From Candidatus Woesearchaeota archaeon (GTDB taxonomy: Archaea; Nanobdellota; Nanobdellia; Woesearchaeales; UBA11576), in NCBI GenBank assembly GCA_018668595.1, contig JABJCP010000009.1:62735-126734 (forward strand): a stretch of 64,000 bases of DNA. Direction: 5' to 3'. Positions 15,184 to 64,000 of this stretch are shown piece by piece (position 1 is the first letter of the stretch; every line of letters starts with the position of its first letter). The position numbers were made by a program, and so were the translations under genes. The notes beneath the pieces were generated by a model. That model was not told where the DNA came from. It saw only the letters and a program-made list of their open reading frames with translations, and searched no databases.

Positions 15184-15211
15184 AATTTGAAAAATATTTG
15201 AAACTAATAAA

Positions 15212-18118: not shown

Positions 18119-18132
18119 ACTAAAAACAAAAA

Positions 18133-24189: not shown

Positions 24190-24238
24190 TGATTATTTAA
24201 TATTAAAAAATGATTAAAAAAAATTAAATAACTAAAAA

Positions 24239-47221: not shown

Positions 47222-47224
47222 ATA

Positions 47225-47854: not shown

Positions 47855-47909
47855 AAAAGTTAAACAAATTAAATTAAACAAATTAAATAATTGTGGATGG
47901 TGGTTTATT

Positions 47910-48170
47910 ATGGGAATTATTAGAAAAACTTTATTTTATGTTTCAATTATTAGCATGGCATCAGGTTTTGGTTATTGTGTTGGTAAAGGTGTTGGAGATA
48001 AACAGTGTCGAGAAGAAATTCATGAAGGGTATTTCACACATCCAGACTCAGGTCAGAAATATGAACTAAATGTTGAAGAAGGAACTTTAGAAAAATTAAG
48101 TGGAGAATATGAAAAACCTAAAGATTATATTGGTGAAAAAGGCCTAAAAGAAATTTTTGAAAGTAGGTAA
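47910..48170 (+). CDS. Small membrane protein
   Basis: The internal start MGIIRKTLFYVSIISMASGF follows a GGTGG SD. The track start (47754) overlaps the upstream gene. Confidence 0.35.
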   Translation: MGIIRKTLFYVSIISMASGFGYCVGKGVGDKQCREEIHEGYFTHPDSGQKYELNVEEGTLEKLSGEYEKPKDYIGEKGLKEIFESR

Positions 48171-48242
48171 TTGAGTTGTTAAGCACAGGGATAATTAAGT
48201 AATTAATTATTGGATTTTTTATTAAAATTATTAGGTGGTATT

Positions 48243-49520: not shown

Positions 49521-49563
49521 CTCACTAAGAATTTGATTTTTTTCATTTTGAGGATTGACTAGA

Positions 49564-50253
49564 ATGGATAAGATAAAAAACAAATTGAAACAGGATCTTG
49601 ATAAAAAAAATAGGAGACATAATAGAAAAGCAAAACGTATGTCGACCAATATTTTATCAAAATTAAAAACAACAATACCTCCTCATAGAGAAATAACTAA
49701 TAAAAGTTCAAGAAGAATTATTGATGCGCTTAAAGAACAGTATAAACAGTATAATCAAGCAATTCTTGATGTTGGAGAAATTAGGGACGAGTATCAATTG
49801 CTTGTTAATGATGAGAGTGTTAGAAATCCATTTATTGTAAGTTCTGGTCTTGTAGATATAATAAGAAATGAAACTAAAAATTTAAATTCAAATGAAAAAA
49901 AAGCAAGACGCATTTATGATTGGATTGAAAAAAACATAGAGTATGGTAAAGGATTAAAAAAATATAGTAATTCTGAAGAAGTAATTAATCAGCGTCGGGG
50001 TGTTTGTGGTGAAATGGCTTTTGTATACGTCACAATGGCAAGATGCATTGGTTTAAAGTCTAGTTATGTTAGTGTAAGAAGAGATTATAGTGGAAAAAAA
50101 GTTCATCATGCTTGTGCTGTTGTGAGAACAGAAAGAGGTAATATTTTTGTTGATCCTGCATATCACACATATGATGTGAAACACAAGGATTACGAAGTAC
50201 TTAATGATGTTGAAGTTTTAGAAAGATTTAATCAATGGAGGGGAAGAGAATAA
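49564..50253 (+). CDS. Transglutaminase-like cysteine protease domain protein with N-terminal motif MDKIKNKLKQ
   Basis: The catalytic Cys motif is RRGVCGEMAFVYVTMARCIGL. The His/Asp part is HHACAVVRTERGNIFVDPAYH. Confidence 0.55.
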   Translation: MDKIKNKLKQDLDKKNRRHNRKAKRMSTNILSKLKTTIPPHREITNKSSRRIIDALKEQYKQYNQAILDVGEIRDEYQLLVNDESVRNPFIVSSGLVDIIRNETKNLNSNEKKARRIYDWIEKNIEYGKGLKKYSNSEEVINQRRGVCGEMAFVYVTMARCIGLKSSYVSVRRDYSGKKVHHACAVVRTERGNIFVDPAYHTYDVKHKDYEVLNDVEVLERFNQWRGRE

Positions 50254-50254
50254 A

Positions 50255-50737
50255 ATGAATGATAAAATTAAAGAGCATCTAAAATATGTCAATTTCCAAA
50301 AAAATAAAGAAACATTGTCATCCTCTCTAGATAATAAAGTCGAAGTTGAAGATATTGTTGTTAAAAAAAGATCGTTAAAACCAGGATTATTATATATTCA
50401 AATTGGTCAGTATGGAACTTTTCATAGTAAAGGCAAATACGAAGCGGATAATAATTCTCATAACGGTCTCGAAGTACATGTTTCAGATGGGGTGCATGAT
50501 TATTATTTAGTTACGGGCGTTTGTGAAGAAAGTGCAAAAGAAAAAAACCAGGGTTGTCCAGGAGTTTGTAAAATTAACCTGCCTGGCGGACATTATGCGG
50601 TAGAGACATCTTATAACGGACCTTATAAAAAAAAGATAACTGTGGATGGAGATACAAAATTATATATTCACATTAAGAGCAAGCTTAGAAAAAAATCTGT
50701 AAAGAGAGTTGAGACAGGAGATAAGAAAAATGACTGA
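50255..50737 (+). CDS. Hypothetical protein with N-terminal motif MNDKIKEHLK
   Basis: A member of the N-motif family. Confidence 0.4.
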   Translation: MNDKIKEHLKYVNFQKNKETLSSSLDNKVEVEDIVVKKRSLKPGLLYIQIGQYGTFHSKGKYEADNNSHNGLEVHVSDGVHDYYLVTGVCEESAKEKNQGCPGVCKINLPGGHYAVETSYNGPYKKKITVDGDTKLYIHIKSKLRKKSVKRVETGDKKND

Positions 50738-51194
50738 TAAAATAAAAGAAAAATTAAAAAGTGAAAAACCACCAGAACCAATACCTACTTATCAAAAAAA
50801 AGATATTCAATATATCTCGACACCAATAGATAAAAAAACAGATTTAGGAAAACTTGAAGTTATGGTTTGCAAAGATTTTATGGATTGGACAGGAGATATA
50901 AAATCAAGTAAAACTGTTAGAGATTTTATGAAAAACTTTGCAAGTGTAAAACCTGGAATTGTCGTCGAGGCAAAAAGTACTCACAACGAAAAAGATGTTT
51001 ATTATTTAAACACTAGGTGGGATGGTCGTTCTAAAGTAAAAATCCCTACAGGCAATTATACAATTACTGCAATACTTGATGATAAATCTTATAGTAATCC
51101 TTCTAAGCACGCCACTGTTTACAAAGGAAAAAAAACAGAAGTAACTTTCACCATAAAAAAAGAAGACTTTCAAATCGAAAAAAAATATACCTAG
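50730..51194 (+). CDS. Hypothetical protein with N-terminal motif MTDKIKEKLK
   Basis: ATG 50730 follows a CAGGAGA SD. The track used an upstream TTG. Confidence 0.4.
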   Translation: MTDKIKEKLKSEKPPEPIPTYQKKDIQYISTPIDKKTDLGKLEVMVCKDFMDWTGDIKSSKTVRDFMKNFASVKPGIVVEAKSTHNEKDVYYLNTRWDGRSKVKIPTGNYTITAILDDKSYSNPSKHATVYKGKKTEVTFTIKKEDFQIEKKYT

Positions 51195-51197
51195 AAA

Positions 51198-51608
51198 ATG
51201 ACAGATCCAATTTTAGAAAAACTAAAAGGAAATATTATTCCTAGTGAAGAACCAGTATTAAAAGATCCTTACAAACCAAATCCTGCTAATGTAGCTGTTG
51301 AAGTAAATACTATTGAAACTAAAGTTGGAGAATTATTTAGTTTTGAAAATACAACGCCTGTACATTGCAAACAAACTTTAATTTATGAAAAAGGACTTTT
51401 CGAACTTGTTAATATTGATAAATCTCCTGTTTTAATTAATGGAGAACTTGTTTGTGGTCCTGGTCCCATCCACAAATACAATTTCAAAGCTAAACAACTT
51501 GGGAACTATTGTATAACTTGTGCTGATATCGACGGGACAAATGGTATGATATATAATTTAAATGTTTATGAAATTAATATTGCTAAAATAGATAAAAAGA
51601 GGGGTTAA
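51198..51608 (+). CDS. Hypothetical protein with N-terminal motif MTDPILEKLK
   Basis: A member of the N-motif family. Confidence 0.4.
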   Translation: MTDPILEKLKGNIIPSEEPVLKDPYKPNPANVAVEVNTIETKVGELFSFENTTPVHCKQTLIYEKGLFELVNIDKSPVLINGELVCGPGPIHKYNFKAKQLGNYCITCADIDGTNGMIYNLNVYEINIAKIDKKRG

Positions 51609-52790: not shown

Positions 52791-54095
52791 ATGAATATTC
52801 CAAAAACAATTTTAGAGGATTTTAAACTTTGTGGAGAACCTTTTATTATTCGCTCTAATAGAATTTATACTTTAGAGTCTGCTCAAGGAGTATTTGACAA
52901 CAATGATTTTATTCAGTTTCTCGACAAAAAATATCCTTTGGAGAAATCTTTGTTAATTTCCAATTTAGAAAATCGTTATTTTTCTTTAAATGAAAAATAC
53001 ATTAATAGTTATTTGCAACACATCATTAAAAGAGATTATGTGAGTAAAGTAGAATCATCTCACGCAGCGTTGATTTCGCAGCACAATATTTATGAGCAAA
53101 ATAAATTATCTTCTGTTGAACATTTTATCAGATCGCAGGTTGTTCCACAATACGCAGAACTTGCTAAAGATTTTTTCCAGGTTAATTCAGATGTTCCTTC
53201 AAAGCCTAAAAAAATAAAAACTGTTAGTTCTGAAACATTTGATCCTGATATGTTTCGTTTTCCAGATATTTCTGATCTCTATTCAGAAAAAAGCATTCTT
53301 GAATCTGTGATGGGTTCATTTGTTAATTCAGATTTTATTTTTACTCTTGGTGGAAGATGCTATGTTTCGTCTACTTATGATAATTCTCCTTCAGAATTAG
53401 TAAAAATAAACAATAAAGTTCATTCATTAAAATATTTAAGTTCACTTAGTAATCTTGATAAGAATTATAAAACTGCAATAATCAGAAAGTTAAATTCTGT
53501 TGCAAAAAATCATGGAGAACAACTTATTCCTAAGATTCAAAAAAATTTAGATCAAATAAAAAATCTTGAATCTGCATTTGAGGTTCAAGATAAAACTGAT
53601 TTTGGTTCAATTGGTTACCAAAAAGTTAATAATGATAAATATAGAATTTACATTAATATAGTCCCTTTTATTGCTAAAATGAGGGGTAAATTTTTTCATT
53701 TTATAAAAACTAAAGTTGGAACTGATTTTTTAATTAAAAATAATTCTTTAGAAATTTTATCTGCACCTGTAGTTATTGAAAAAGAGCGCTATTATCATCC
53801 TTTTGTTAGTTCTAGTAATAGTATGTGTTATGGAGGTAATAAACGTTGGAAATTTACAGGTGTTGAGTTTTGTAAAAAGTATCATTTAGACTCAAAAGAA
53901 AATAGGCAAATTGCAGGTTATAAAGTCGCAGCAGTTTTGGCTGAAGGGTGGAAAGTTATTCATAGAGGGTATTTGAAATCAAATTCTCCAGATACTTATC
54001 ATCCCATATCTCATTTTCAAAATCGTGAAGTTTCAAAGCAAGCGGCAGATAATTTAGTAAACAGTGGTTTGAAACTTTATGTTCAGGATGAGTGA
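52791..54095 (+). CDS. E2/UBC-like protein, paralog 1, with a long N-terminal domain
   Basis: The C-terminal motif YYHPFVSSSNSMCYGG has the same H-P-x-[VI]-x5-[IM]-C spacing as the UBC active site HPNI-x5-IC. It is paralogous to 58413..59702. Confidence 0.45.
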   Translation: MNIPKTILEDFKLCGEPFIIRSNRIYTLESAQGVFDNNDFIQFLDKKYPLEKSLLISNLENRYFSLNEKYINSYLQHIIKRDYVSKVESSHAALISQHNIYEQNKLSSVEHFIRSQVVPQYAELAKDFFQVNSDVPSKPKKIKTVSSETFDPDMFRFPDISDLYSEKSILESVMGSFVNSDFIFTLGGRCYVSSTYDNSPSELVKINNKVHSLKYLSSLSNLDKNYKTAIIRKLNSVAKNHGEQLIPKIQKNLDQIKNLESAFEVQDKTDFGSIGYQKVNNDKYRIYINIVPFIAKMRGKFFHFIKTKVGTDFLIKNNSLEILSAPVVIEKERYYHPFVSSSNSMCYGGNKRWKFTGVEFCKKYHLDSKENRQIAGYKVAAVLAEGWKVIHRGYLKSNSPDTYHPISHFQNREVSKQAADNLVNSGLKLYVQDE

Positions 54096-54206
54096 GACAG
54101 TCTTATTAATCTTAATCACATCGTCGGAACTCTTTCGGTTTTTTCTACAAAACTCTTATTAAATAAATCTTCATAAAATCATTTAATAAAACAGGGGGCT
54201 AACAAA

Positions 54207-54626
54207 ATGAGCTTACTATATTTAAGATTAGACGCATCTTTTGCAGAGACTACAACTCTTGTGAAAAGAATTCCAGAATCAAAGCTTGACGAAACAATAG
54301 AGTCTCTTATTTTGTACATGTGTGATACTTCTCCAGATGTTCTTAATCCAGAACTAATAGATCATGCGAATAGTTGTTATTCTTTTAAAGAAGTTAGGTT
54401 GGCACAAAATATAGAAGATAGTATTGAAACAATTCAAGAAGACAACCCCGCATTTGTTTCGCCTTTAAAATTATATTCTCTTGTTGGGGATATTCCTGTT
54501 ATTATGGCATCTCACAAAACATTAGCAAATAAGTCTCTTGCAGAATATAAAAATAAAATCATAACAACAAAAAAATTAGATAATGAATCTTACAAAATAA
54601 TTGATTTGATATTAAAAACTGTTTAA
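54207..54626 (+). CDS. Ubl-like small protein, divergent copy with no C-terminal GG
   Basis: MSLLYLRLDASF...YMCDTSPDVLNPEL...SCYSFKEV aligns with the other small paralogs. Confidence 0.4.
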   Translation: MSLLYLRLDASFAETTTLVKRIPESKLDETIESLILYMCDTSPDVLNPELIDHANSCYSFKEVRLAQNIEDSIETIQEDNPAFVSPLKLYSLVGDIPVIMASHKTLANKSLAEYKNKIITTKKLDNESYKIIDLILKTV

Positions 54627-54638: not shown

Positions 54639-55709
54639 ATGAATGAAATTAAAAAACTTGAAACTGTAATTGGCACAGAAGATGTTAAACTTAATGAAGA
54701 ATCTGTAATTGAAGATTTATTCGAACAGACAGGTAATTTTTTTAATGATGTGTTTATTAAAAGTAGGGTTGGGCCAAATACTAAATTAAATCATAAAAAA
54801 ATATCATCAAATAAATATTCTATTTCGATAGATTTAGAAGATTATATTCTTAAGAAGAATGATAGATATTTTAAGTTTGATAAAGTGACAATTGGCTTAG
54901 ATATTTTATTTGATAAAGAGTCAATTCAATTTTTAAGAGCTACTAAAATTAAATTAGGAAAAAAATATGATCATCCTTTTGTATTTAATGATAATTCTAT
55001 TTGTTATGGGGGTGGCTTAAGGTGGAGACTTGTTGGTGTTGATTTTGGAAAAAAATATTCTATTAAAACAGATGAAGAAAAAAATAATGCTGCTTGGAAA
55101 ACCTGTCTTGTTTTAACAGAAGGTGCTAAGGTGCTACACGAAGTACATGGTGATCAAGTCATACCTGTTAATAATTTAATGAATAGATTTTCTGATAGAG
55201 AAATATGTAAAAACAAAGCAGAATTATCTGGTTTAATTATTTATGGTGCTGAATCATCAACTAAAAAAACTCAGGAGTTACCTAACTCTAGTAATTTATA
55301 TATTAGATTGGACGGAGCTTTTGCAAACAAAGTTATTCTTGCAAAACGAGTTCCTGAAACAATTTTATCAGAGCCGTTGGATGAGGTTATTAGGTATATG
55401 TGTAATCCGACTTCGGATGAATTGAATGAAGAGCTCGAGGATAATCCTAGTAGTTGTTATACTGAACAAGAAGTTAGCACTGCGAAATTATTTCAAGAAG
55501 CATTTGATGAAGGAATTAATTCTCCGAATAAATCATTCGAGGTTCAGGCAATTAGTGTCGACGGAAATTCGCTGATTTATCTTGGCAGAGATGCTGATTT
55601 GAAAACTGTAACTCTCGATTCTAAACGTAGTGAAATTCTTATGGAAGAACATATCGATGAAGGAAATTATAATTTGATTGATCTTAAAGGAACTTATGTT
55701 AGTTGTTAA
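54639..55709 (+). CDS. Fusion protein with an E2/UBC-like core followed by a C-terminal Ubl-like domain
   Basis: The N-terminal part carries KYDHPFVFNDNSICYGGGLRWRLVGVDFGKKY. The C-terminal part (NLYIRLDGAFANKVILAKRVPET...) is about 80% identical to the free Ubl paralogs and ends ...DLKGTYVSC. Confidence 0.45.
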   Translation: MNEIKKLETVIGTEDVKLNEESVIEDLFEQTGNFFNDVFIKSRVGPNTKLNHKKISSNKYSISIDLEDYILKKNDRYFKFDKVTIGLDILFDKESIQFLRATKIKLGKKYDHPFVFNDNSICYGGGLRWRLVGVDFGKKYSIKTDEEKNNAAWKTCLVLTEGAKVLHEVHGDQVIPVNNLMNRFSDREICKNKAELSGLIIYGAESSTKKTQELPNSSNLYIRLDGAFANKVILAKRVPETILSEPLDEVIRYMCNPTSDELNEELEDNPSSCYTEQEVSTAKLFQEAFDEGINSPNKSFEVQAISVDGNSLIYLGRDADLKTVTLDSKRSEILMEEHIDEGNYNLIDLKGTYVSC

Positions 55710-55713: not shown

Positions 55714-56643
55714 ATGACTCGCGCTGCTATTTTAATCGGATCGTTGGAAAGTTTTCAAAAAGAGGAGTTTGCAGATCCTATGAAAGAATCTTTTGCAAAG
55801 ATTGGACTCGATTCAATTATTGTACCCTTAAATAAAATAGAAGAGTTAAATAAAGTAGATATTGTTTATACTCTGCCTCATAGTATTCAGGTTGATCTTT
55901 CGTTCTTAGATGAAAAAAATATTCCTATTATTAATTCGCATAGGTCTCATTCGCTTTCTAAAAATAAAATGGAAAGTAGTGATGTATTTATCAAAAATAA
56001 TATTCCAACTCCGGATACTATAACAACAGATTCTCAAGATGAATTAATTAATTTCATAAATAAACACAATAAAATTATTTTGAAGCAACCTGATATTTGT
56101 GCAGGCTATGGGCACATGATTGTTGAAAAAATCAATAACAATTATTTTGCATGGAATAATGATTCAAAAGGCGAGTTTGATTTTTCAAATCCTAATTTTG
56201 TTAAAGCAAATAAACGAGTTTTTGCACAGCCGTATTATGCACAAGATTTTATTTCTGATTTTAATCCTGATAATATTGTGTCTGTTTATAGAGCATATGT
56301 TATCGGAAATAATGTTCCTATGGCAACTGCAAGAGTTGGTAAAGATCAGCCCATTGTTAATGTTGCAAGGGGTGCACATTATGAATTTGTTACTCCTGAT
56401 AAAAAAATGAAAGAAATTGCATTAAAGACTGCAGATAGTATTGGTTTTGAAGTTGGAGTTGTTGATTTATTAAAAGATAAAAATCAAAATTATTTTGTTA
56501 TTGAATGCGATTGCGATGGTCTTACATTAGTTGTTTGTAGAAAGTTTAGAAAATTGAAAGAGTTTGAAGATAAATATGATTTTGATCAGCACATTGGCAG
56601 AAGATTAATTGAAATTGTAAATGGAGAATCTTATAGAACTTGA
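55714..56643 (+). CDS. ATP-grasp ligase (RimK-like)
   Basis: ILKQPDICAGYGHMIV fits vvKP..GS.G.GV. YRAYVIGNNVPMATARVGKDQPIVNVARGA fits the RimK D.Rv.vvG...a..R......tN...Gg pattern. EVGVVDLL...YFVIECD is also present. Confidence 0.55.
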   Translation: MTRAAILIGSLESFQKEEFADPMKESFAKIGLDSIIVPLNKIEELNKVDIVYTLPHSIQVDLSFLDEKNIPIINSHRSHSLSKNKMESSDVFIKNNIPTPDTITTDSQDELINFINKHNKIILKQPDICAGYGHMIVEKINNNYFAWNNDSKGEFDFSNPNFVKANKRVFAQPYYAQDFISDFNPDNIVSVYRAYVIGNNVPMATARVGKDQPIVNVARGAHYEFVTPDKKMKEIALKTADSIGFEVGVVDLLKDKNQNYFVIECDCDGLTLVVCRKFRKLKEFEDKYDFDQHIGRRLIEIVNGESYRT

Positions 56644-56650: not shown

Positions 56651-56779
56651 CTCGTCGGAACTCTTCCGCTTTTTAACATACAACCCTTATTAAATTCAAT
56701 ATTGCGTTTATATTTGTTTAGTGGGAGAACTTAAATTAAAAAGTAAAAATACATCTAAACTAGATTGAGATATACAAAA
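56651..56779 (+). promoter_or_regulatory. Conserved ~130-bp promoter/5'-leader module (copy 1) upstream of a Ubl gene, with three palindromes
   Basis: It contains CGGAActcTTCCG and TTTAGtgggagaaCtTAAA (imperfect in this copy), then CATCTAaacTAGATt immediately 5' of the start codon. Confidence 0.45.
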
Positions 56780-57205
56780 ATGAAAAATTTATACATTAGA
56801 TTAGACGGAGCTTTTGCAGATAAAGGCGTTCTTGCAAAAAAAGTTAGTGAGAATTTACTTTTAGAAACATTAGATACTGTTATTATGTGTATGTGTGACT
56901 CTACTCCTGATGAGTTTAATCATGAATTAGCTGAGAATCCTGGTAGTTGTTATACTGCGCAGGAAGTTAGAAAAGCCGAACTTATTGAAGAAGCACTAGA
57001 CGATGGACTTAATTATTGTATTACTGTTAAGGTTGATGCGCTTAGTGTAGGCGGAAATTCTTTAGTAGAACTTGGAAGAAATGGTGAACTAAGAACTGCT
57101 ACAATTGCCGATAAGAAAAATGAAATTCTTAGAAAACTTGATCTTGATGGTAAACAATATTATATTGTAGATCTTAAGATGTCTTATTTATGCCCTGGGG
57201 GTTAG
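56780..57205 (+). CDS. Ubl-like small protein ending in a free Gly-Gly (…YLCPGG*)
   Basis: It begins MKNLYIRLDGAFADKGVLAKKV and ends at stop TAG directly after GG. The start at 56780 was chosen by alignment with the paralogs; the track used an upstream TTG. Confidence 0.5.
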   Translation: MKNLYIRLDGAFADKGVLAKKVSENLLLETLDTVIMCMCDSTPDEFNHELAENPGSCYTAQEVRKAELIEEALDDGLNYCITVKVDALSVGGNSLVELGRNGELRTATIADKKNEILRKLDLDGKQYYIVDLKMSYLCPGG

Positions 57206-57216: not shown

Positions 57217-57350
57217 TCCTCGGAATCCTTCCGAATTTTAACACGTAATCATTATTAAATTCAATATTGATTTTATACTTATTTAGGGGGAAAACCTAAA
57301 TTATATGTAAAAAATAAAAATACATCTAAACTAGATGGATGCATATGAAA
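57217..57350 (+). promoter_or_regulatory. Promoter/5'-leader module, copy 2
   Basis: It contains CGGAAtccTTCCG, TTTAGGgggaaaaCCTAAA and CATCTAaacTAGATG (57323..57337). Confidence 0.45.
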
Positions 57351-57803
57351 ATGGAAAATTTATACATTAGATTAGACGGAACATTTGCAGATAAAGTTGT
57401 TTTTGCAAAACGAGTTTCTGAAACAATTTTATCAGAGCCGTTGGATGAGGTTATTAGGTATATGTGTGATTCTTCTCCTGATGATTTAAATAAAGAAATT
57501 GAAATAGATTATTGTTTTGATATGAATCAAGATTACATCAAAGACAGTGGTTATACAGCGCAGGAAGTTAATAATGCAAATATTATTGAACATTTTTTGA
57601 ATCAAGATATTAGATCGGACAATATTTGTGCAGAAATTCATGCTATTAGTAAGGATAAAAATTCGCTTGTTTATTTAGGTAAAACAAACAAGCTTAAAAA
57701 TGTTAATCTTGCTTCAAAAAAAAAATATTTGTTACAAAAAGAAAAAATAGGTGGCGAAAATTATTTCATTATTGACCTTAAGTTTAATTTGCTTTGCATG
57801 TAG
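57351..57803 (+). CDS. Ubl-like small protein with a divergent C-terminus (…LLCM*)
   Basis: It begins MENLYIRLDGTFADKVVFAKRVSETILSEPLDEVIRYMCD. The start was aligned to the paralog starts. Confidence 0.45.
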   Translation: MENLYIRLDGTFADKVVFAKRVSETILSEPLDEVIRYMCDSSPDDLNKEIEIDYCFDMNQDYIKDSGYTAQEVNNANIIEHFLNQDIRSDNICAEIHAISKDKNSLVYLGKTNKLKNVNLASKKKYLLQKEKIGGENYFIIDLKFNLLCM

Positions 57804-57842
57804 ATTGCAAGGTTTAGTATACTGCAGTTTTATTACTCTCTC

Positions 57843-57976
57843 CTCGGAACTCTTCCGCTTTTTAACACACAATCCTTATTAAATTCAATATAACATTTAT
57901 ACTTATTTAGGGGGAGAACCTAAATTATATGTAAAATAAGTAAAAATACATCTAGATTAGATGGAGGTATATAAAA
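57843..57976 (+). promoter_or_regulatory. Promoter/5'-leader module, copy 3
   Basis: It contains CGGAActcTTCCG, TTTAGGgggagaaCCTAAA and CATCTAgatTAGATG (57949..57963), followed by a GGAGG SD. Confidence 0.45.
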
Positions 57977-58411
57977 ATGGGAAATCTATACGTTAGATTG
58001 GATGGAGCTTTTGCAAACAAAGTTGTTCTTGCAAAAAAAGTTCCTGATACAAAGTTATCAGAACCGCTCGAAGATGTTATTAGGTATATGTGTGATCCAA
58101 CTCCGGACGCATTAAATGAAGCGCTTGCAGATAATCCTGGTAGTTGTTATACTGCGCAAGAAGTTAGCAATGCATCTTTGATTGAAGAAGCTTTAGAAGA
58201 TGGGCTTAATAGTGAGAATTCTTCGTTTGAAGTTCAAGCAGTTAGTCTTGACGGTAATTCAATGGTTTATCTTGGCAAGGATAATGAATTAAGAAGTGCA
58301 AATATAGCATCTAAGCAAAACGATATTCTTAGAGACGAAAATTTTGATGGAGAGGTTTACAAGCTTGTAGATCTTAAAGGAGTTTATGTTGGAGTTGGTG
58401 GTAAACTTTAA
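57977..58411 (+). CDS. Ubl-like small protein ending GG-KL (…VGVGGKL*), a precursor-like C-terminus
   Basis: It begins MGNLYVRLDGAFANKVVLAKKVPDTKLSEPLEDVIRYMCDPTPD. A GGAGG SD lies upstream. Confidence 0.5.
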   Translation: MGNLYVRLDGAFANKVVLAKKVPDTKLSEPLEDVIRYMCDPTPDALNEALADNPGSCYTAQEVSNASLIEEALEDGLNSENSSFEVQAVSLDGNSMVYLGKDNELRSANIASKQNDILRDENFDGEVYKLVDLKGVYVGVGGKL

Positions 58412-58412
58412 A

Positions 58413-59702
58413 ATGCAAAATTTAAATACTTTTTTAAATAGTTTTAAGCTCGCTGGAGAACCTTTTTTTATTAGAGGTGACAGGCTCTATACTTTAGAGC
58501 TTTCAAATGGTTTTTGTAACAGCGAGCAGTTTTTATCTTTAATGGAGCGAAAATATCCTCTAGAAAGATCAGTTGATATTAGCAATCTGGAGTATACCTC
58601 TTTTCTCAAACAAAAAAATTCAATTTTAAATTTTATGGAAAAACACATTAGAAATAATTTTATCAGTAAACTTGAAAGTTCAGAAAAAAAGGTAATTCGT
58701 GCAAGTGGTTTGTATGAACAAAATAGACTTTCTTCTATTGAACGATTTATTCGTGAAAAAATAATTCCTGAATATGCTGAAGTTGCAAAGCGTTTTTTAG
58801 ATGATAAATCAATAAAAACACCTAACCTTATAAAAAAAGTTTCAAAGGTTAAAGCAGAATCTTTTGATGTTAATAGTTTTGTTTGGCCAGGTATTGAAGA
58901 CTTAAAATCAGATATTAGTAGGTTGGATAAAATAATTGAAAAAGAAGGCGTTTTAATTGTTGGTGGTCGCTGTTATTCTGCATCTCGTTCAAAATCAAAA
59001 TCTTTATCTGATTATGTTAAAGCTGGAAGTTCTTTTTATAGTTTAGATTATATGTGTTGTGTTGATGAATTGGATAAAATTTACAAACAAGAATTAGTTA
59101 AGTTTTTTCAAGATACTTCAAATAAGCAGGGTAATATTTTAGTTCCTTTAATTAAGCAAAATAACCAAAAATTATCTAACTTAACAGATGCTGTTAATAA
59201 ATCTGTTGATCAAAAATTTGGAAATATTGGTTATAAGTGTGTTAGTGAACATAAGTATCAAATTTTTCTTAAGTTTAATCCGTTTATTATAAAAAAAGAT
59301 GATCAATACTATAAATTTCCTGAATTAAAATTAGGAACTGATTTAATTATCAAGAACAATATGCTTGAAATTGTAGCAGCACCTCAAGTTTTGGGTTCTA
59401 AACCATATCTTCATCCTTTTGTTTGGTCTGATAAACGCATTTGTTATTCTGGTGATACTAAACGTTGGCATTTTATAGGTATCGATTTTGGAAAAAAATA
59501 TCCTATAAATTCTGAACAAAATCAAAATGATGTTGCTTGGAAAGTCGCATTAGCTCTTTCAGAGGGTTTTAAGGTTATTCATAAAGGATATATTGGAAAT
59601 AAAATTATTCCTGTTAATAACTTACATTCTAGTTGTAAGTCTCGCAAAATTTCTTATTCAGAAATATCGCCCTCAAAATTAAAGGTGTATAACAATGATT
59701 AA
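58413..59702 (+). CDS. E2/UBC-like protein, paralog 2
   Basis: It carries YLHPFVWSDKRICYSGDTKRWHFIGIDFGKKY. The N-terminus MQNLNTFLNSFKLAGEPFFIRGDRLYTLE aligns with 52791 (MNIPKTILEDFKLCGEPFIIRSNRIYTLE). Confidence 0.45.
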   Translation: MQNLNTFLNSFKLAGEPFFIRGDRLYTLELSNGFCNSEQFLSLMERKYPLERSVDISNLEYTSFLKQKNSILNFMEKHIRNNFISKLESSEKKVIRASGLYEQNRLSSIERFIREKIIPEYAEVAKRFLDDKSIKTPNLIKKVSKVKAESFDVNSFVWPGIEDLKSDISRLDKIIEKEGVLIVGGRCYSASRSKSKSLSDYVKAGSSFYSLDYMCCVDELDKIYKQELVKFFQDTSNKQGNILVPLIKQNNQKLSNLTDAVNKSVDQKFGNIGYKCVSEHKYQIFLKFNPFIIKKDDQYYKFPELKLGTDLIIKNNMLEIVAAPQVLGSKPYLHPFVWSDKRICYSGDTKRWHFIGIDFGKKYPINSEQNQNDVAWKVALALSEGFKVIHKGYIGNKIIPVNNLHSSCKSRKISYSEISPSKLKVYNND

Positions 59703-60969
59703 TAAAAACAATAACAAATATGGTTCATCAAACAATAGTATAGATGAAGAAATTCAAAAACTTATAGGACCTATTAGAATTACTCGTGAAGCATTAGAAA
59801 AAGGTAAATTAATTGCAAAGCGTACTTGTGATATTGCAAAAAAATTTAATCTTGGAACTTTAGAAATTTATTTGTATAATCTTAATCCTATTGATAAACA
59901 AGAAAAAGGCGATTATGCTATTAGAGATTTGTACATTGCACATGAGCAAACTGTTTCTGCTATTAATTGCGAGGTTGGTGCTCAAGGTCAAATAATGTCC
60001 CGAGATATAGCTTATCAAGAGCATAATATGTATACTATTGGTTGGTCTCATTCTCATGGAGATCTAGGGGTTTTTGTTTCAGGAACTGATGATAATAATA
60101 CTAAAAATGTTGTCAAATTTTTAGGAATAGCGTCAGGGATTGATTTATTGGAAGAGTGTGGTTCAATTAATTATGAGAATATGGAAAACAAAATTACTTT
60201 TTTAGATGGATCGCAGTATTTTATTAGTGCAGAAACATCAAAAGATAAAGAGCTTGTTGAAGGTTTATTTGAAACTATTTTAAAATCAAATCCGTTAACA
60301 ATTCATACAAAGAAAAAAAAGTTTTTTAATTGGACTCCTAGTTTTGTTTTTAATTCTAAAGGAGATTTTCATCCTTTTATGGCATATTATTTAGATAGAA
60401 ATATGATGTTGGTTGATGGTTGTTCTTATGAAATTTTGGAGGAGAATAATGGCATATGTCTTGATCCGCAAGTTATTGATGAGGAAATAATTACTCGAGT
60501 TAGAGAACTCAACTTCATTAAAAATAAAAAAACGCCAGAAACTAAAAAAACTCAATCAAAATTGTACAATTTATTTTTTAAAAAAGCTGAAGAATTTGAC
60601 AAGAATCATGATAAACTCAAAGAGTATATTAAAAATAAACAGAATTCTAACCGTACTTCTAAACGAGAGTGGAAAAAAGAATCTGGTTTATCTAAAAACA
60701 TTCAAGAATCTGTTGTTGAAATGGGTGATCTTTTAGATCATTGTGAAAATGAGTTAGGGACAAATATTAGTGATGATGAACTTGCTAAAATAAAACAAGT
60801 TTATCTTGCAAGGCAGCAGCAGATTAAAGAAGCTCAACCATTAATAGAACAAAGAATTGATTCACTTTGTAATGAAGCTAACTCTCGTAATTATGTTAAG
60901 AACCACGGGTTGATTGATATGTATGAATCTATTTTAAAAAATTCTTTAGGAGGAGATATTGATGCCTAA
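59695..60969 (+). CDS. JAMM/JAB (MPN+) metallopeptidase
   Basis: The full JAMM motif E…HSHGDLGVFVSGTD (HxHx7Sx2D) is present. Confidence 0.6.
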   Translation: MINKNNNKYGSSNNSIDEEIQKLIGPIRITREALEKGKLIAKRTCDIAKKFNLGTLEIYLYNLNPIDKQEKGDYAIRDLYIAHEQTVSAINCEVGAQGQIMSRDIAYQEHNMYTIGWSHSHGDLGVFVSGTDDNNTKNVVKFLGIASGIDLLEECGSINYENMENKITFLDGSQYFISAETSKDKELVEGLFETILKSNPLTIHTKKKKFFNWTPSFVFNSKGDFHPFMAYYLDRNMMLVDGCSYEILEENNGICLDPQVIDEEIITRVRELNFIKNKKTPETKKTQSKLYNLFFKKAEEFDKNHDKLKEYIKNKQNSNRTSKREWKKESGLSKNIQESVVEMGDLLDHCENELGTNISDDELAKIKQVYLARQQQIKEAQPLIEQRIDSLCNEANSRNYVKNHGLIDMYESILKNSLGGDIDA

Positions 60970-62509
60970 TGAAGTTATTGCAGATATTAATAATCGTAAT
61001 CATTTAGCATGGAGTATTGATAAATCTATTAATATGGATTATTCAAAAAAATTAGCTGATTTAGAAAAAAATAAAACTGGTTTAAGTCAAGGGGTTTACG
61101 ATCAAAAGAAATTAGGTTTATTAGAAGAAAAAAAAGCAGAGTTAAGCAAGCTAGGAGAAGAAAGAATAAATTTATTAAATAATTTAAAAATAATGGTTCT
61201 TGGTTCAGGACCTCTTGCGCAATTTGTTAGCGGAGGGTTAATGGGTTTAGGTATTGGAACTATTTATGTCGTCGGTAATGAGATTGTTTCACGAAATGAT
61301 AGTTATGATTTTTTAGTAACTAAAGAATCAAATCTTGGAAAATCAAAAGTAGACGAAATTGTGGCTAGGATGAACGAAATTAATGATTATAATAATTTTG
61401 TTCCTGTTTTTTCAAGATTTAGTTCTGCTTTAACTAATTCATTTTATCCTTCGGATATGATTATTGATGCGACAAACTCGTCTGTTTCAAAAAATAAAGT
61501 TTTGAGATATTGTATTGATAACAAGATTCCTTTAATTTCTGCATCATCTAGTTTTAGAAATTCAAGAGTTTCTTCTTACAAACCAAACTCTGCACCTATT
61601 AGACTTAAAGATTCAGTTAATTTGGAAGCAGTTATTCACCAAGAACTTGATGGTCTTTCTCAAGACATTGTGAGTTCTGGAATTATTGCAGGAATTATTT
61701 TAGAGGAAGTTAGAAAGCAAAAGTTTTCTATGTCAAAAACAGATTTTCCTCTTAAAAATTTTCAAGTTGTAAATTATAATCCTTATTCTAAAACAAGAAA
61801 TAATAAGTTGAGAGATCTACCCAAATGTGCTAAAACTTATGCAAATAAACGTGTTTTAGTCGCAGGAGCAGGAGCGCTAGGTAATTTTGTTGCAATGGAA
61901 CTTGCTTTGTTAGGGGTTGGACAATTGGATATTTTAGATATGGATTCTGTTGAGGTTTCAAATCTTAATCGTCAAATTAATTTTGATAAGTCAAATATTG
62001 GTAAGGAATACAAAAAAGCAACAGTTCTTTTTGATCGTTTAAAAAAATTAAATCCATCTATTAATGGAACTGGAATAGTTGCAAAACTTGAAATGACTTC
62101 GGATAATTTGATTAAAGAAGGCAACTATGATGTTTTACTTGGTTGTTTTGATAATAAGATTGCAAGACAAACTTTAGATCATTTTGCGGAAAAATATAAT
62201 ATTCCTTATGTTGACGGAGGTTGTTCGACAAACGCAGGCCAGGTTGTTTCATTTATTCCTGGTTATAACCAGAAGGTCACTGAACAGGTTAATTTTCCAG
62301 ATCCTTCTAATAGTGGTAATCAGGTAGGTTGTGCTATTGTAGCTCAAGCTAATCCTAGTATTATTACTTCAAATGCAATTATTGGCAGTGCAACTGTTGC
62401 AGAGGCTTTAAAGATTTTATCAGGGCAAAATTATGGGGATGTTGGAGGTTCTTTTAACTATCGTAGTAATTCTCCTGACCGTATTTGGTTGGATCCTTAT
62501 GTTCCTTAA
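60959..62509 (+). CDS. E1-like (ThiF/MoeB/UBA) activating enzyme with tandem Rossmann domains (N-terminal degenerate, C-terminal active)
   Basis: The N-terminal domain reads IMVLGSGPLAQFV with no SNLNRQ. The C-terminal domain reads RVLVAGAGALGNFVAMELALLGVGQLDILDMDSVEVSNLNRQ. GGCSTNAGQV lies downstream. Confidence 0.65.
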   Translation: MMPNEVIADINNRNHLAWSIDKSINMDYSKKLADLEKNKTGLSQGVYDQKKLGLLEEKKAELSKLGEERINLLNNLKIMVLGSGPLAQFVSGGLMGLGIGTIYVVGNEIVSRNDSYDFLVTKESNLGKSKVDEIVARMNEINDYNNFVPVFSRFSSALTNSFYPSDMIIDATNSSVSKNKVLRYCIDNKIPLISASSSFRNSRVSSYKPNSAPIRLKDSVNLEAVIHQELDGLSQDIVSSGIIAGIILEEVRKQKFSMSKTDFPLKNFQVVNYNPYSKTRNNKLRDLPKCAKTYANKRVLVAGAGALGNFVAMELALLGVGQLDILDMDSVEVSNLNRQINFDKSNIGKEYKKATVLFDRLKKLNPSINGTGIVAKLEMTSDNLIKEGNYDVLLGCFDNKIARQTLDHFAEKYNIPYVDGGCSTNAGQVVSFIPGYNQKVTEQVNFPDPSNSGNQVGCAIVAQANPSIITSNAIIGSATVAEALKILSGQNYGDVGGSFNYRSNSPDRIWLDPYVP

Positions 62510-62522
62510 GTAGGTGTGTTTT

Positions 62523-64000
62523 ATGGCGAAGAAAAAAAAAAATAATCTAAAACAGGGAAAAAAAGTAGGAAAAAATAGAACGGAATTGTCTAAAAAAAAA
62601 AGAAAGCCATTTGAAAATAAATTAGATAAACTCAATAAACCTTTTTCAGAAGACAGTTCTTCGCAAGAACTTTCGTTACACAAAGATTATTCTAAACTAG
62701 ATTGGTTTTCTTTAAATGAGAAATTTGAATATGAACTTAATAAACTAGATATAAACCCTATTAATATGGAATTATTTAATTATGTTAGATCTGATTTATA
62801 TTGTGTTAAATCTGAATTAATAAATAGGAATTTAAGCAGTAGAGTAATTCTTGATAGAAATTATGATTTGGAATTGTTAATTAAAAAAGAGATTAAGCCA
62901 AAAGTTACTATTGATATTACTGATGATTCAATTGAAAAAAGCAAATTAATTGCAAAAAAACTCGTCGATCTTGGTAAAGCAGCAGGTTTAGGAAAGAATG
63001 AGATATATTTGGCAGGAGTTTGTGATAAATCCAACTATGATAAAGATGATTTTATTGTTGAGGATATTTATATTGTTCCTGATCAGGTTTGCTCTAATGA
63101 GCGATGCGAATTTCCAAGTACGGGCAAGTTTAAAATGCTTGATGAGTTGGATAAATTAAAAAAAGTTCCGATTATGTGGATTCATTCTCATTGTGATGAT
63201 ACTTATTTTTCTCCTGACGATAAAGATAATTTATTTAATCTGGTCAGATTTGATGGTTTTCTAAAAGAGTTGTCTTATGAATTATTGGATGAAAAATCGA
63301 GTTTAATTTTCAAATGTTATCCTGCAATTGTTGTTTCAGGAATAAATGATGCTGAAACTTTTGGAGTGCAGTTATTAAGAAAACCAAAAATTTATGACAA
63401 AGATTCTAAAAAAATATCTGAGATTAAAGAAAAATCCACAGTATTATTGACTGGGGCAGATATTTCAGTAAACATTCATAAGTTGGATGTTAAAATTAGT
63501 TTAGATGAAATTTTAATTCAAAAAGAATTGGTAAATAAAGTTACAATTAAAAGATATAATTCTATTCATAAATTATCTGATTATTATGATTGCAATCTAA
63601 AATTAATAAATTCTGCTGAACCAAAATATGTCGAAGAGCCGTCTACAAAAATTAAGGATAGTTTGGCTAATAGAGATGGGCAAAGAGCTCAACAAAAAGC
63701 ACAAGAAGAAAAAGTAAAAACATCAGGCATTCTTGGTAGATTAAAATCTGAACCTGTTGATGAAATTTCTGATTCAAGTTCATATGAACATACTGTTGCA
63801 ATTATTAAAAAAGACTTGCCAATATGTAGTGCTAATTCAGATTTAGTTAATGAAATTAAAAAACCTCGGGATGAATATTATGTTGGAGATTCATTTAAAA
63901 TTACGCATATTGATGTGAATAGGGGTTCTTTTGTTTTTAATAATAAAGAGTATTTCCTAAAATTCGATAATGAAAATATTAAACCATTTTTAGATTTATT
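62523..64000 (+). CDS. Second JAB/JAMM-like protein, 3'-truncated by the window edge and absent from the ORF track; paralogous to 59695 in its N-terminal region
   Basis: Manual translation gives MAKKKKNNLKQG... with EIYLAGVCDKSNYDKDDFIVEDIYIVPDQ and WIHSHCDDTYFSPDD (HxH-x6-S-x2-D). It shares IT.e..EK.KLIAK...LG..EIYL with the first JAB. An AGGTG SD lies upstream. Confidence 0.5.
   Translation, partial: MAKKKKNNLKQGKKVGKNRTELSKKKRKPFENKLDKLNKPFSEDSSSQELSLHKDYSKLDWFSLNEKFEYELNKLDINPINMELFNYVRSDLYCVKSELINRNLSSRVILDRNYDLELLIKKEIKPKVTIDITDDSIEKSKLIAKKLVDLGKAAGLGKNEIYLAGVCDKSNYDKDDFIVEDIYIVPDQVCSNERCEFPSTGKFKMLDELDKLKKVPIMWIHSHCDDTYFSPDDKDNLFNLVRFDGFLKELSYELLDEKSSLIFKCYPAIVVSGINDAETFGVQLLRKPKIYDKDSKKISEIKEKSTVLLTGADISVNIHKLDVKISLDEILIQKELVNKVTIKRYNSIHKLSDYYDCNLKLINSAEPKYVEEPSTKIKDSLANRDGQRAQQKAQEEKVKTSGILGRLKSEPVDEISDSSSYEHTVAIIKKDLPICSANSDLVNEIKKPRDEYYVGDSFKITHIDVNRGSFVFNNKEYFLKFDNENIKPFLDL

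What the first reader, a model, noticed from the sequence alone, without database searches (positions are those of the whole stretch)
55714..56643. ATP-grasp (RimK-like) ligase embedded between the E2-Ubl fusion and the Ubl paralogs
RimK-type ATP-grasp enzymes ligate amino acids onto the C-termini of protein substrates. Its placement inside a Ubl/E1/E2/JAB operon suggests a second, E1-independent ligation chemistry. One option is C-terminal tailing of the Ubl proteins, which could explain the variable C-termini. Another is an alternative conjugation route.
Basis: inference. Interest (0 to 1): 0.6.

Follow-up and report, generated by a model that had tools for sequence, protein, structure and literature searches.

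The report
ATP-grasp ligase in archaeal ubiquitin-like operon
A RimK/LysX-type ATP-grasp ligase gene is a conserved, previously undescribed part of a ubiquitin-like (Ubl–E2–JAB–E1) gene cluster in tiny DPANN archaea, which suggests a second ligation step whose substrate is still unknown.

Summary

The window comes from a marine Woesearchaeota MAG. The ATP-grasp belongs to a distinct RimK-like subfamily. In eight divergent DPANN-type lineages (34-51% identity) it sits in the same cluster: transglutaminase-like protein ... ATP-grasp - Ubl(s) - E2 - JAB - E1. In 7 of 8 it lies directly 5' of a Ubl gene, so the link to the Ubl system is well supported.

The chemistry is not established. Sister clades (Poribacteria) sit in small-molecule-type clusters (RraA-PhyH-M20-SDR), and a minimal Ubl-E2-E1-JAB variant lacks the enzyme, so it is an accessory component. 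The most likely role is ATP-dependent ligation of an amino acid or amine to a protein carboxylate, possibly the Ubl tail, paired with the transglutaminase-like peptidase. I rate it a new variant of a known kind, of moderate to high interest.

The parts
55714..56643 (+). ATP-grasp amidoligase of the RimK/LysX-like subfamily, 309 aa (alternative start at 55696)
   Evidence: Pfam and NCBIfam hits. PDB profile search. Model with pLDDT 89 and Foldseek hits to ArgX/LysX/RimK. ATP-grasp residues K124, Q177, R193, N216, D251, E264 and D266 are invariant in the clade.
54639..55709 (+). Short E2-like domain fused to a GG-less Ubl domain (ends ...YVSC). Its stop lies 4 nt before the ATP-grasp start.
54207..54626 (+). 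Ubl paralogue of 139 aa, GG-less (ends ...LKTV). First gene of the inferred unit Ubl139 / E2-Ubl / ATP-grasp.
   Evidence: Alignments A2 and A5. Local HMM E=1e-53.
52791..54095 (+). Long E2-like protein of 434 aa, a paralogue of 58386-59702
   Evidence: Alignments A3 and A4, with invariant Y..HPFV..C..W.
56652..56695 (+). Intergenic element: hairpin CGGAACTCTTCCG plus a T-run (terminator-like), followed by a TTTATA box. One of four copies (54121, 56652, 57217, 57841).
   Evidence: the repeat finder family D5. Terminator-like scan hits at 56656 and 57845. Sequences.
56765..57205 (+). Ubl paralogue (141-146 aa) ending ...CPGG, a ready-made GG terminus
57339..57803 (+). Ubl paralogue (152-154 aa), GG-less (ends ...LLCM)
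57977..58411 (+). Ubl paralogue of 144 aa ending ...GVGG-KL, a precursor-type tail
58386..59702 (+). Long E2-like protein (429-438 aa): N-terminal extension of about 250 aa plus a UBC-like catalytic domain
   Evidence: The fold is inferred from the fusion model.
59695..60969 (+). JAMM/JAB peptidase of 424 aa with the motif WSHSHGD...SGTD
   Evidence: Pfam Prok-JAB 2.4e-4, below the cut-off. Best PDB hit is the Caldiarchaeum Rpn11-like protein at 0.002.
60959..62509 (+). E1 with two tandem ThiF-like halves (the C-terminal half is the active one) and a conserved Cys in the presumed crossover loop
   Evidence: PF00899 2.6e-59. Best PDB hit is the SUMO E1 UBA2 at 5.6e-17. Alignment of four E1s.
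62514..64000 (+). Second JAMM-like paralogue, cut off by the window end (507 aa in L003)
   Evidence: 35% identity to the JAB core, motif HSHCD...SPDD. Conserved in L016 and L028.
49555..50253 (+). Transglutaminase-core (papain-like Cys-His-Asp) protein that co-occurs with the ATP-grasp
   Evidence: PF01841 3.1e-14. Present upstream of the ATP-grasp in 6 of 6 loci with enough upstream sequence.
46526..51608 (+). Six consecutive genes sharing an N-terminal D-x-I-K-x-K-L-K motif. They include conserved cluster families F5 (47225-47854) and F6 (48210-49520) and the transglutaminase-like gene.
   Evidence: Regex scan: 6 of 63 ORFs match, and all six are contiguous. Family clustering.

Best explanation
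The gene encodes a catalytically competent ATP-grasp carboxylate-amine ligase of the RimK/LysX/MptN lineage. It is a conserved accessory component of a DPANN-archaeal ubiquitin-like conjugation cluster with this order: F5, F6, transglutaminase-like protein, ATP-grasp, Ubl(s), E2, JAB, E1, JAB2, F7, F8.

Shown: the enzyme class and fold, conservation of the active-site residues, and conserved synteny with the Ubl, E2, JAB and E1 genes in eight lineages.

Inferred from the chemistry of every characterised relative (RimK on ribosomal protein S6, LysX/ArgX on LysW, MptN and CofF on cofactors): it phosphorylates a carboxylate to an acyl-phosphate and joins it to the alpha-amino group of an amino acid or another amine.

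Inferred from the gene arrangement: the carboxylate belongs to a protein of this pathway. The Ubl C-terminal tail is the leading candidate. Possible effects are capping or extending a processed or GG-less Ubl, or loading an amine onto it in the way LysX loads LysW. The co-occurring transglutaminase-like Cys peptidase, or the second JAMM peptidase, would act as the reversing hydrolase. Under this reading the module works alongside E1/E2 rather than replacing them.
For: Enzyme class.

Active site: K124, G131, H134, Q177, R193, N216, G220, D251, E264 and D266 are invariant across nine clade members.

Distinct subfamily: an exhaustive search gives 18 hits below 1e-30. These cover a C-terminal extension (query positions ~270-313) that ordinary RimK/LysX hits lack. 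The subfamily sits on a separate branch in the NJ tree.

Synteny: the window, L001, L013, L016 (Nanoarchaeia), L028 (Woesearchaeota), L037-39, L042 and L050/51 all carry the ATP-grasp next to Ubl and E2-like genes. JAB and E1 genes are also present wherever the contig is long enough. ATP-grasp identity among these lineages is only 34-51%. The gene lies directly 5' of a Ubl gene in 7 of 8 lineages.

Transglutaminase-like gene: present upstream in 6 of 6 informative loci, and overlapping the ATP-grasp start in L016 and L050.

Neighbour identities: E2 and Ubl folds; E1; JAMM peptidases.

Closest structures: the best structural matches are exactly the ATP-grasps that act on the C-terminus of a small partner protein, namely ArgX-LysW, LysX and RimK-S6.

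Transcription unit: in the window the ATP-grasp appears to share a transcription unit with two GG-less Ubl forms.
Against: There is no direct evidence for any substrate.

Sister clades of the same subfamily lack Ubl genes. Twenty-one Poribacteria or uncultured-bacterium loci show RraA / ATP-grasp / PhyH / M20 / SDR / GNAT, a small-molecule-type cluster. One marine member overlaps a deoxyhypusine synthase gene. Other members stand alone or lie next to proteases. The ancestral substrate may therefore be a metabolite.

A related Ubl-E2-E1-JAB operon (L012) works without the ATP-grasp.

Ubl tails are Gly-rich or hydrophobic. They are not acidic like the known RimK and LysX protein substrates.

Monophyly of the Ubl-linked ATP-grasps has only 20% NJ bootstrap support.

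The Mg-binding E-x-N motif reads E-x-D in this clade.
Confidence: 0.55

Rival explanations
1. E1-independent conjugation. The ATP-grasp activates the Ubl C-terminal glycine as an acyl-phosphate and ligates it directly to a lysine or N-terminus of target proteins. This would be a PafA/Pup-like route running alongside E1/E2.
For: The gene sits directly upstream of Ubl genes in 7 of 8 lineages. One paralogue is encoded with a ready-made ...PGG terminus. The best structural relatives bind a small protein's C-terminus. The clade has a specific C-terminal extension that could serve as a docking surface.
Against: No characterised RimK-family enzyme uses a protein amine as the nucleophile (background knowledge). 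A complete E1/E2 pair with catalytic Cys residues is always present beside it, which makes a duplicate route unnecessary. Sister clades look metabolic.
Confidence: 0.12
2. It modifies a different protein. The ATP-grasp would add amino acids (for example glutamate) to the C-terminus or a side chain of an E2, of the conserved F5-F8 proteins, or of the proteins carrying the N-terminal DKIKxKLK motif. This would mark or regulate substrates of the Ubl pathway, and the transglutaminase-like peptidase would erase the mark.
For: The ATP-grasp is translationally coupled to the variable upstream accessory genes, by overlaps or gaps of 4-6 nt. It is separated from the Ubl genes by 65-160 nt, and in the window by a terminator-like element. 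It strictly co-occurs with the transglutaminase-like gene. A shared N-terminal motif marks the accessory proteins.
Against: The upstream partner differs between lineages: the E2-Ubl fusion, a membrane protein, the transglutaminase-like protein, F10, or a 225-aa protein. No single alternative substrate is therefore conserved next to it. None of these proteins has an obvious acidic C-terminal tail.
Confidence: 0.2
3. Small-molecule ligase. The enzyme makes or modifies a metabolite (a dipeptide, or an amino-acid or polyamine amide). The system would use it only indirectly, as a cofactor, signal or acceptor amine, or the enzyme is merely co-located with the system.
For: The Poribacteria clade lies in an RraA / PhyH / M20 / SDR / GNAT cluster. 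The family includes the cofactor ligases MptN and CofF, and MptN is the top NCBIfam hit at 6.5e-23. One relative overlaps a deoxyhypusine synthase gene.
Against: Position within the Ubl cluster is conserved across eight lineages at 34-51% identity, in genomes that are small and otherwise poor in biosynthetic genes. No other small-molecule enzyme is conserved in the cluster. All scores are far below the MptN, CofF and LysX equivalog cut-offs.
Confidence: 0.13

Closest known systems
LysX/ArgX with LysW (amino-group carrier protein system of lysine/arginine biosynthesis)
   Same: It is a RimK-family ATP-grasp encoded next to a small partner protein whose C-terminal carboxylate it ligates to an amino acid. 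These are the best structural matches (3vpb 2.5e-15, 3vpd 5e-15) and the best PDB sequence matches (1uc8).
   Different: The partner here is a ~140-aa beta-grasp Ubl with a GG-type tail. It is not a zinc-ribbon LysW with an acidic tail. There are no LysZ/Y/J/K-type biosynthetic genes nearby. The LysX HMM scores 67 bits against a cut-off of 276. A subfamily-specific C-terminal extension is present.
RimK (ribosomal protein S6 poly-alpha-glutamate ligase)
   Same: It matches the same Pfam family (PF08443) and has the same fold (7qys, 5zct, 4iwx at about 1e-13). RimK is the precedent for C-terminal amino-acid tailing of a protein.
   Different: The RimK equivalog NF007764 scores only 21.7 bits against a cut-off of 331. 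No S6 gene is adjacent. The candidate substrates lack a Glu-Glu tail.
Prokaryotic E1/E2/JAB/Ubl operons (Bil, type II CBASS Cap2/Cap3, Bub, and the Caldiarchaeum E1/E2/RING system)
   Same: The core set is shared: a Ubl with a GG tail plus extension, a Cys-containing UBC-like E2, a JAMM peptidase and a ThiF-type E1.
   Different: My full-text searches found no description of any of these systems with an ATP-grasp gene. The E2 here carries an N-terminal extension of about 250 aa. The Ubl and E2 are invisible to Pfam and PADLOC. There are extra conserved genes: the transglutaminase-like gene, a second JAMM, and F5-F8. The hosts are DPANN archaea.
Pupylation (PafA ligase and Dop depupylase)
   Same: The logic is similar. 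An ATP-dependent carboxylate-amine ligase works through an acyl-phosphate on a small protein modifier and is paired with a hydrolase.
   Different: PafA has a glutamine-synthetase-like fold, not an ATP-grasp fold. Pup is disordered and has no E1/E2. This comparison rests on background knowledge and was not tested here.
Predicted ATP-grasp / Alpha-E / transglutaminase-like peptide-tagging operons (Iyer, Aravind and co-workers; recalled from memory)
   Same: An ATP-grasp amidoligase is paired with a transglutaminase-fold peptidase.
   Different: No Alpha-E domain was detected in any neighbour scanned. The ATP-grasp here is a canonical RimK-like one, not circularly permuted (model topology). It is embedded in an E1/E2 system.

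Membership tests
ATP-grasp superfamily, RimK-like family (Pfam PF08443) | Significant match to the family HMM above the gathering threshold | tested here: met
   PF08443 scores 47.8 bits against a cut-off of 21, E=1.7e-12.
ATP-grasp superfamily, RimK-like family (Pfam PF08443) | Three-domain ATP-grasp fold | tested here: met
   Model with pLDDT 89.2 and pTM 0.89. 467 PDB matches at E<=1e-3, led by ArgX, LysX, RimK and Ddl.
ATP-grasp superfamily, RimK-like family (Pfam PF08443) | Conserved ATP- and Mg-binding residues (Lys in the central domain, the Q/E-x-x hinge, and the Asp and Glu-x-Asn Mg ligands) | tested here: met
   K124, Q177, D251 and E264 are invariant. The E-x-N position is Asp266 in this clade and Asn in relatives P0029 and P0030. 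Assignment of residues to roles is by alignment and general knowledge, not by experiment.
RimK proper (S6:glutamate ligase; NF007764 / TIGR00768) | Score above the NCBIfam cut-off | tested here: not met
   TIGR00768 scores 77.6 bits against 143.4. NF007764 scores 21.7 against 331.
LysX/ArgX (LysW ligase) | Equivalog score, plus an adjacent LysW gene and lysine/arginine pathway genes | tested here: not met
   TIGR02144 scores 67.3 bits against 275.6. The neighbours are Ubl, E2, JAB and E1 genes, not lysW/Z/Y/J/K.
MptN / CofF cofactor glutamate ligases | Equivalog score and a methanopterin or F420 pathway context | tested here: not met
   MptN scores 81.2 bits against 350. CofF scores 40.3 against 300. 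No such genes are present in the window.
Ubl-E2-JAB-E1 conjugation operon (the system the gene is filed under) | A beta-grasp Ubl with a C-terminal Gly-Gly, with or without an extension | tested here: met
Ubl-E2-JAB-E1 conjugation operon (the system the gene is filed under) | A UBC-fold E2 with the HPx...Cys active-site motif | tested here: met
Ubl-E2-JAB-E1 conjugation operon (the system the gene is filed under) | A ThiF-type E1 adenylation domain and a JAMM peptidase | tested here: met
   PF00899 at 2.6e-59 in two stretches. UBA2 and Uba1 hits. JAMM motif H-S-H...S-x-x-D, with Prok-JAB 2.4e-4 (below the cut-off) and an Rpn11-like PDB hit at 0.002.
Ubl-E2-JAB-E1 conjugation operon (the system the gene is filed under) | Actual Ubl conjugation activity | not testable with these tools
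   This requires biochemistry.
Known anti-phage Ubl systems (CBASS type II and other PADLOC models) | Matches to the system-specific HMMs for all components | tested here: not met
   Only the E1 matches the Cap2 'E1-E2' models, through its ThiF domain (1e-21). The Ubl, E2, JAB and ATP-grasp have no PADLOC hit. PADLOC v2.0.0 dates from 2023 and may lack Bil and Bub models.
ATP-grasp / Alpha-E / transglutaminase peptide-tagging operon | An Alpha-E domain protein and a circularly permuted ATP-grasp | tested here: not met
   No Alpha-E hit in the neighbours. The domain order in the model is canonical.

The most novel reading that the evidence does not exclude
The ATP-grasp is a dedicated Ubl C-terminus ligase that works through an acyl-phosphate rather than an E1 adenylate or thioester. 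Two modes are possible. In one, it adds residues non-ribosomally to Ubl tails, making GG-less paralogues competent or capping processed ones. In the other, it joins the Ubl directly to an amine acceptor. Either way a ubiquitin-like system would have two chemically distinct activation routes, with the transglutaminase-like peptidase as the matching eraser.
Probability: 0.3. Interest if true: 0.85.

Novelty: new variant of a known kind. Interest (0 to 1): 0.62.

Why it matters
Ubiquitin-like conjugation is thought to depend everywhere on E1 adenylation and thioester chemistry. Here a second ATP-dependent carboxylate-amine ligase is fixed inside an archaeal E1/E2/JAB/Ubl cluster and paired with a papain-fold enzyme. 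This would add a new regulatory or ligation layer, either tailing or capping of the modifier or a parallel tag. It gives a concrete and cheap biochemical test: mix the enzyme with the Ubl paralogues, ATP and amino acids. The work also defines a compact 11-12-gene Ubl system that Pfam cannot see and that is specific to DPANN archaea, organisms whose host-dependent biology is poorly understood. Its E1 and JAB most resemble eukaryotic or Caldiarchaeum-type enzymes, which bears on how Ubl signalling diversified before eukaryotes.

Tried and rejected
- Exact look-up of the 309-aa product found nothing, because databases use the 315-aa start. The 315-aa form, P0001, worked.
- The search for related loci with the two-sequence ATP-grasp alignment found nothing in the metagenome or viral collections. 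A clade alignment later gave only two short metagenome contigs.
- The E2-like alignment A4 was too divergent for pattern-based locus searches.
- The word-indexed protein search found only 2-7 relatives of the ATP-grasp, E2 and Ubl. The exhaustive profile search was needed to reveal the ATP-grasp subfamily.
- A combined MAFFT alignment of the fusion with full-length E2s misaligned (A9). It was replaced by trimmed domains (A10).
- Pfam and PHROGs gave nothing for the other conserved cluster families.
- There are no tRNA or Rfam features in the window.
- Rejected: a purine or biotin-type metabolic ATP-grasp. PurD and PurK hits are only 0.003-0.03.
- Rejected: LysX, MptN or CofF orthology. Scores fall far below the cut-offs and the genomic context is wrong.
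- Rejected: a phage or defence-island origin. There are no PHROG or PADLOC hits, and housekeeping genes are nearby, including GAPDH and adenylosuccinate synthetase.
- Rejected: an inactive pseudo-enzyme. The catalytic residues are invariant.
Full report
**What is at the coordinates**

Window 55714-56643 (+) is an intact ORF of 309 codons. GenBank starts it at an upstream ATG at 55696, giving 315 aa: P0001, 'hypothetical protein HOK51_02105, Candidatus Woesearchaeota archaeon'. Homologues align from the 55714 start.

- It matches Pfam RimK (PF08443) at 1.7e-12, above the gathering score.
- In NCBIfam it matches MptN (6.5e-23), the rimK family TIGR00768 (1e-21), LysX (1e-18) and CofF (1.9e-10). 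All are far below the curated cut-offs. It therefore belongs to the alpha-L-glutamate-ligase branch of ATP-grasp enzymes but is not an orthologue of any named member.
- PurD and PurK hits are marginal (0.003-0.03), so it is not a purine or biotin-type enzyme.
- A profile search of PDB sequences finds LysX, ArgX and RimK.
- An AlphaFold model built on 12 subfamily sequences has pLDDT 89.2 and pTM 0.89. It matches ArgX in complex with LysW (3vpb, 2.5e-15), LysX (3vpd, 5e-15), RimK, Ddl and RiPP ATP-grasps.
- The residues expected for ATP and Mg binding (K124, Q177, D251, E264, D266) are invariant in the clade. The usual E-x-N motif reads E-x-D here. Relatives P0029 and P0030 keep Asn at this position.

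**Are the neighbours really a Ubl system?**

Pfam, NCBIfam and PADLOC see only the E1 and, weakly, the JAB. The E1 shows two ThiF stretches at 2.6e-59. The JAB shows Prok-JAB at 2.4e-4.

- The E2-like proteins share an invariant Y-x-H-P-F-V-x6-C-x7-W block. From background knowledge, the H-to-C (+10) and C-to-W (+8) spacings equal those of the HPN...C...W motif of UbcH5-type E2s.
- I modelled the 356-aa fusion protein (54639-55709) with trimmed E2 and Ubl homologues. The model has pLDDT 80.6, with both domains mostly above 85.
- Foldseek against the PDB gave only weak hits, but they were of the right kind: SAP18 (beta-grasp), Ube2W and Ubc13.
- The Ubl family has GG-type tails...CPGG...GVGG-KL, and in other loci ...PGG plus 10-13 residues or ...GPGGN.
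- The best PDB hit of the JAB is the Caldiarchaeum Rpn11-like protein, and it has the JAMM motif. A second JAMM paralogue follows the E1.
- The best PDB hits of the E1 are the SUMO E1 subunit UBA2, ThiF/MoeB and Uba1. It has a conserved Cys in the presumed crossover region.

**Origin and rarity**

The window is from a marine Woesearchaeota (DPANN) MAG, GCA_018659545.1. The identical protein occurs on at least 20 contigs from several marine metagenomes. Housekeeping genes (GAPDH, adenylosuccinate synthetase) and five tandem Ser/Thr kinase paralogues lie upstream. Nothing suggests a virus.

**Co-occurrence test**

Word-indexed searches found almost no relatives. An exhaustive profile search of 1.84 billion representatives found 515 hits, 18 of them below 1e-30. 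The strong hits all extend through a C-terminal segment (query positions ~270-313, motif ...IECDCDG...(C/D)RKF...) that ordinary RimK/LysX hits lack. This defines a separate subfamily, which also sits on its own long branch in an NJ tree.

I recovered genomic context for the members. I then scanned all loci with HMMs built from the window's E2, Ubl, ATP-grasp, E1, JAB and transglutaminase-like proteins.

Eight lineages carry the ATP-grasp inside a Ubl/E2 cluster, with ATP-grasp identity of only 34-51%:

| Lineage | Gene order |
|---|---|
| Window | see above |
| L001 | tg - VWA - membrane protein - AG - Ubl - Ubl - E2 - JAB |
| L013 | E2 - AG - Ubl - E2 |
| L016 (Nanoarchaeia) | tg - AG - Ubl - E2 - JAB - E1 - JAB2 |
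| L028 (another Woesearchaeota) | tg - F10 - AG - Ubl - E2 - JAB - E1 - JAB2 |
| L037-39 | tg - short E2 - ... - AG - E2 - Ubl |
| L042 | AG - Ubl |
| L050/51 | tg - AG - Ubl-like - Ubl - E2 - JAB - E1 |

(tg = transglutaminase-like gene; AG = ATP-grasp gene.)

- The ATP-grasp lies directly 5' of a Ubl gene in 7 of 8 lineages.
- A transglutaminase-core gene (PF01841), whose Cys/His/Asp motif is conserved by eye, lies upstream in all 6 loci with enough sequence. It overlaps the ATP-grasp start in L016 and L050.
- All-against-all BLAST shows a conserved order of 11-12 families: F5, F6, tg, AG, Ubl, E2, JAB, E1, JAB2, F7, F8.

**Limits of the association**

- Twenty-one loci from Poribacteria and uncultured bacteria carry a sister clade (32-39% identity; 100% bootstrap for that clade). 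There the order is RraA-like - ATP-grasp - PhyH dioxygenase - M20 peptidase - SDR - GNAT, with no Ubl, E2, E1 or JAB.
- One marine member overlaps the end of a deoxyhypusine synthase gene.
- More distant clades lie next to an HtrA-like protease and an S9 peptidase, or stand alone.
- A related Ubl-E2-E1-JAB operon (L012, and probably L011) has neither the ATP-grasp nor the transglutaminase-like gene.
- The Ubl-linked ATP-grasps cluster together in the NJ tree, but with only 20% bootstrap support.

The enzyme is therefore an accessory module recruited to one subtype of the system. Its subfamily is not intrinsically tied to Ubls.

**Local anatomy**

A 44-nt element occurs four times, at 54121, 56652, 57217 and 57841. 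Each copy has the hairpin CGGAACTCTTCCG followed by a T-run. Two copies are flagged as terminator-like. Each is followed by a TTTATA box.

If these elements mark unit boundaries, the ATP-grasp is co-transcribed with Ubl139 and the E2-Ubl fusion. Gaps within that unit are 12 nt and 4 nt. Each downstream Ubl paralogue would have its own promoter.

Both Ubl forms in the ATP-grasp unit lack the GG. In alignment the GG-less tails (...LKTV...YVSC...LLCM) stop where the GG of the other paralogues begins. GG-less partners of a GG-bearing Ubl recur in L001 (...GVEG) and L050 (...IADDC). However, L016 and L028 have only one Ubl, with PGG plus an extension, and still keep the ATP-grasp.

**Mechanism**

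Shown: enzyme class, intact active site, and conserved membership of the cluster.

Inferred from family chemistry: a carboxylate is activated as an acyl-phosphate and ligated to an amino-acid alpha-amine or another amine.

Inferred from context: the carboxylate belongs to a protein of the pathway. The Ubl tail is the leading candidate, for three reasons. The genes are adjacent. The closest characterised enzymes (LysX/ArgX with LysW, RimK with S6) act on the C-terminus of a small partner protein. GG-less paralogues exist. The transglutaminase-fold protein or the second JAMM is the natural candidate eraser.

My confidence estimates are:

- About 0.85 that the enzyme functions within the Ubl system.
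- About 0.3 that it acts on the Ubl C-terminus. This includes about 0.12 for true E1-independent conjugation.
- About 0.2 that it modifies another cluster protein.
- About 0.13 that it is a small-molecule ligase.

**Comparison with known systems and novelty**

The core resembles the bacterial Bil, CBASS-II and Bub operons and the Caldiarchaeum E1/E2/RING operon. My full-text searches retrieved no report of an ATP-grasp inside such an operon or of this DPANN system. This is absence in the searchable library only, not proof.

The ATP-grasp itself is a new subfamily member of a known enzyme kind. The combination of an E1/E2/JAB/Ubl system with an ATP-grasp and a transglutaminase-like module is a new variant of a known kind of system. 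Interest is moderate to high. The association is robust and gives a directly testable hypothesis about a second ligation chemistry in Ubl signalling, but the function remains unproven.

Noticed in passing
window 46526-51608 (ORFs starting at 46526, 48210, 49555, 50255, 50709 and 51198); also L001 858-1667, L028 3925 and 12535, L037 1850: Six consecutive proteins just upstream of the Ubl genes share an N-terminal motif, D-x-I-K-x-K-L-K, within the first ~20 residues. They are 6 of the window's 63 ORFs and all six are contiguous. Accessory proteins of the homologous clusters (VWA, F10, F7) carry similar motifs. The motif could be a shared docking or acceptor helix for the pathway.
   Followed up: partly
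window 54121-54164, 56652-56695, 57217-57260, 57841-57884 (and the 136-nt repeats at 56651, 57216, 57840): A repeated intergenic element consists of the hairpin CGGAACTCTTCCG, a T-run and then a TTTATA box. The Ubl paralogues were duplicated together with their terminator-like and promoter-like regions. This implies separate and probably strong expression of each Ubl.
   Followed up: partly
window 54207-54626, 55245-55709, 57339-57803; L001 3351-3725; L050 10944-11339: GG-less Ubl paralogues recur in three lineages next to a GG-bearing paralogue. Their tails end exactly where the GG would start.
   Followed up: partly
window 62514-64000 (full length in L003 8757-10280); L016 15557-16867; L028 10739-12472: A second, divergent JAMM peptidase paralogue (HSHCD...SPDD) is conserved after the E1. 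It is followed by two conserved proteins of unknown function, F7 (~212-324 aa) and F8 (~418-879 aa).
   Followed up: partly
window 12490-26455: Five tandem large paralogues (738-1096 aa) each carry a C-terminal Ser/Thr protein kinase domain, and one has HEAT repeats. This is an unusual expansion for a small DPANN genome.
   Followed up: no
L014-L036 (Poribacteria; for example L014 9084-15572): The sister clade of the ATP-grasp lies in a conserved cluster of RraA-like aldolase, ATP-grasp, PhyH dioxygenase, M20 peptidase, SDR, GNAT and a second PhyH. This looks like an uncharacterised small-molecule pathway of the amide-protect, modify and deprotect type, found in sponge symbionts.
   Followed up: partly
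L040 3-1686 and L041 (marine metagenome contigs): A subfamily member with a canonical E-x-N motif overlaps by 8 nt the end of a deoxyhypusine synthase gene (PF01916, 5e-88). This hints at a link to polyamine or hypusine chemistry.
   Followed up: no
L012 1092-5309 and L011 1781-3515: A minimal variant of the same Ubl/E2 family has the order Ubl(...GPGGN) - E2 - E1 - JAB, the reverse of the window's JAB-E1 order. Its E2 has a 2-residue insertion between HPF and Cys. It has no ATP-grasp or transglutaminase-like gene.
   Followed up: partly
window 60959-62509: The E1 has two ThiF-like halves in one chain, of which only the C-terminal half keeps the GxGxxG...NLNRQ adenylation motifs. Its best solved relative is the eukaryotic SUMO E1 subunit UBA2, not a bacterial ThiF or MoeB.
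   Followed up: partly
window 55696 versus 55714: There are two in-frame ATG starts for the ATP-grasp. The database annotation uses 55696, which overlaps the upstream gene by 14 nt, whereas homologue alignments favour 55714.
   Followed up: yes
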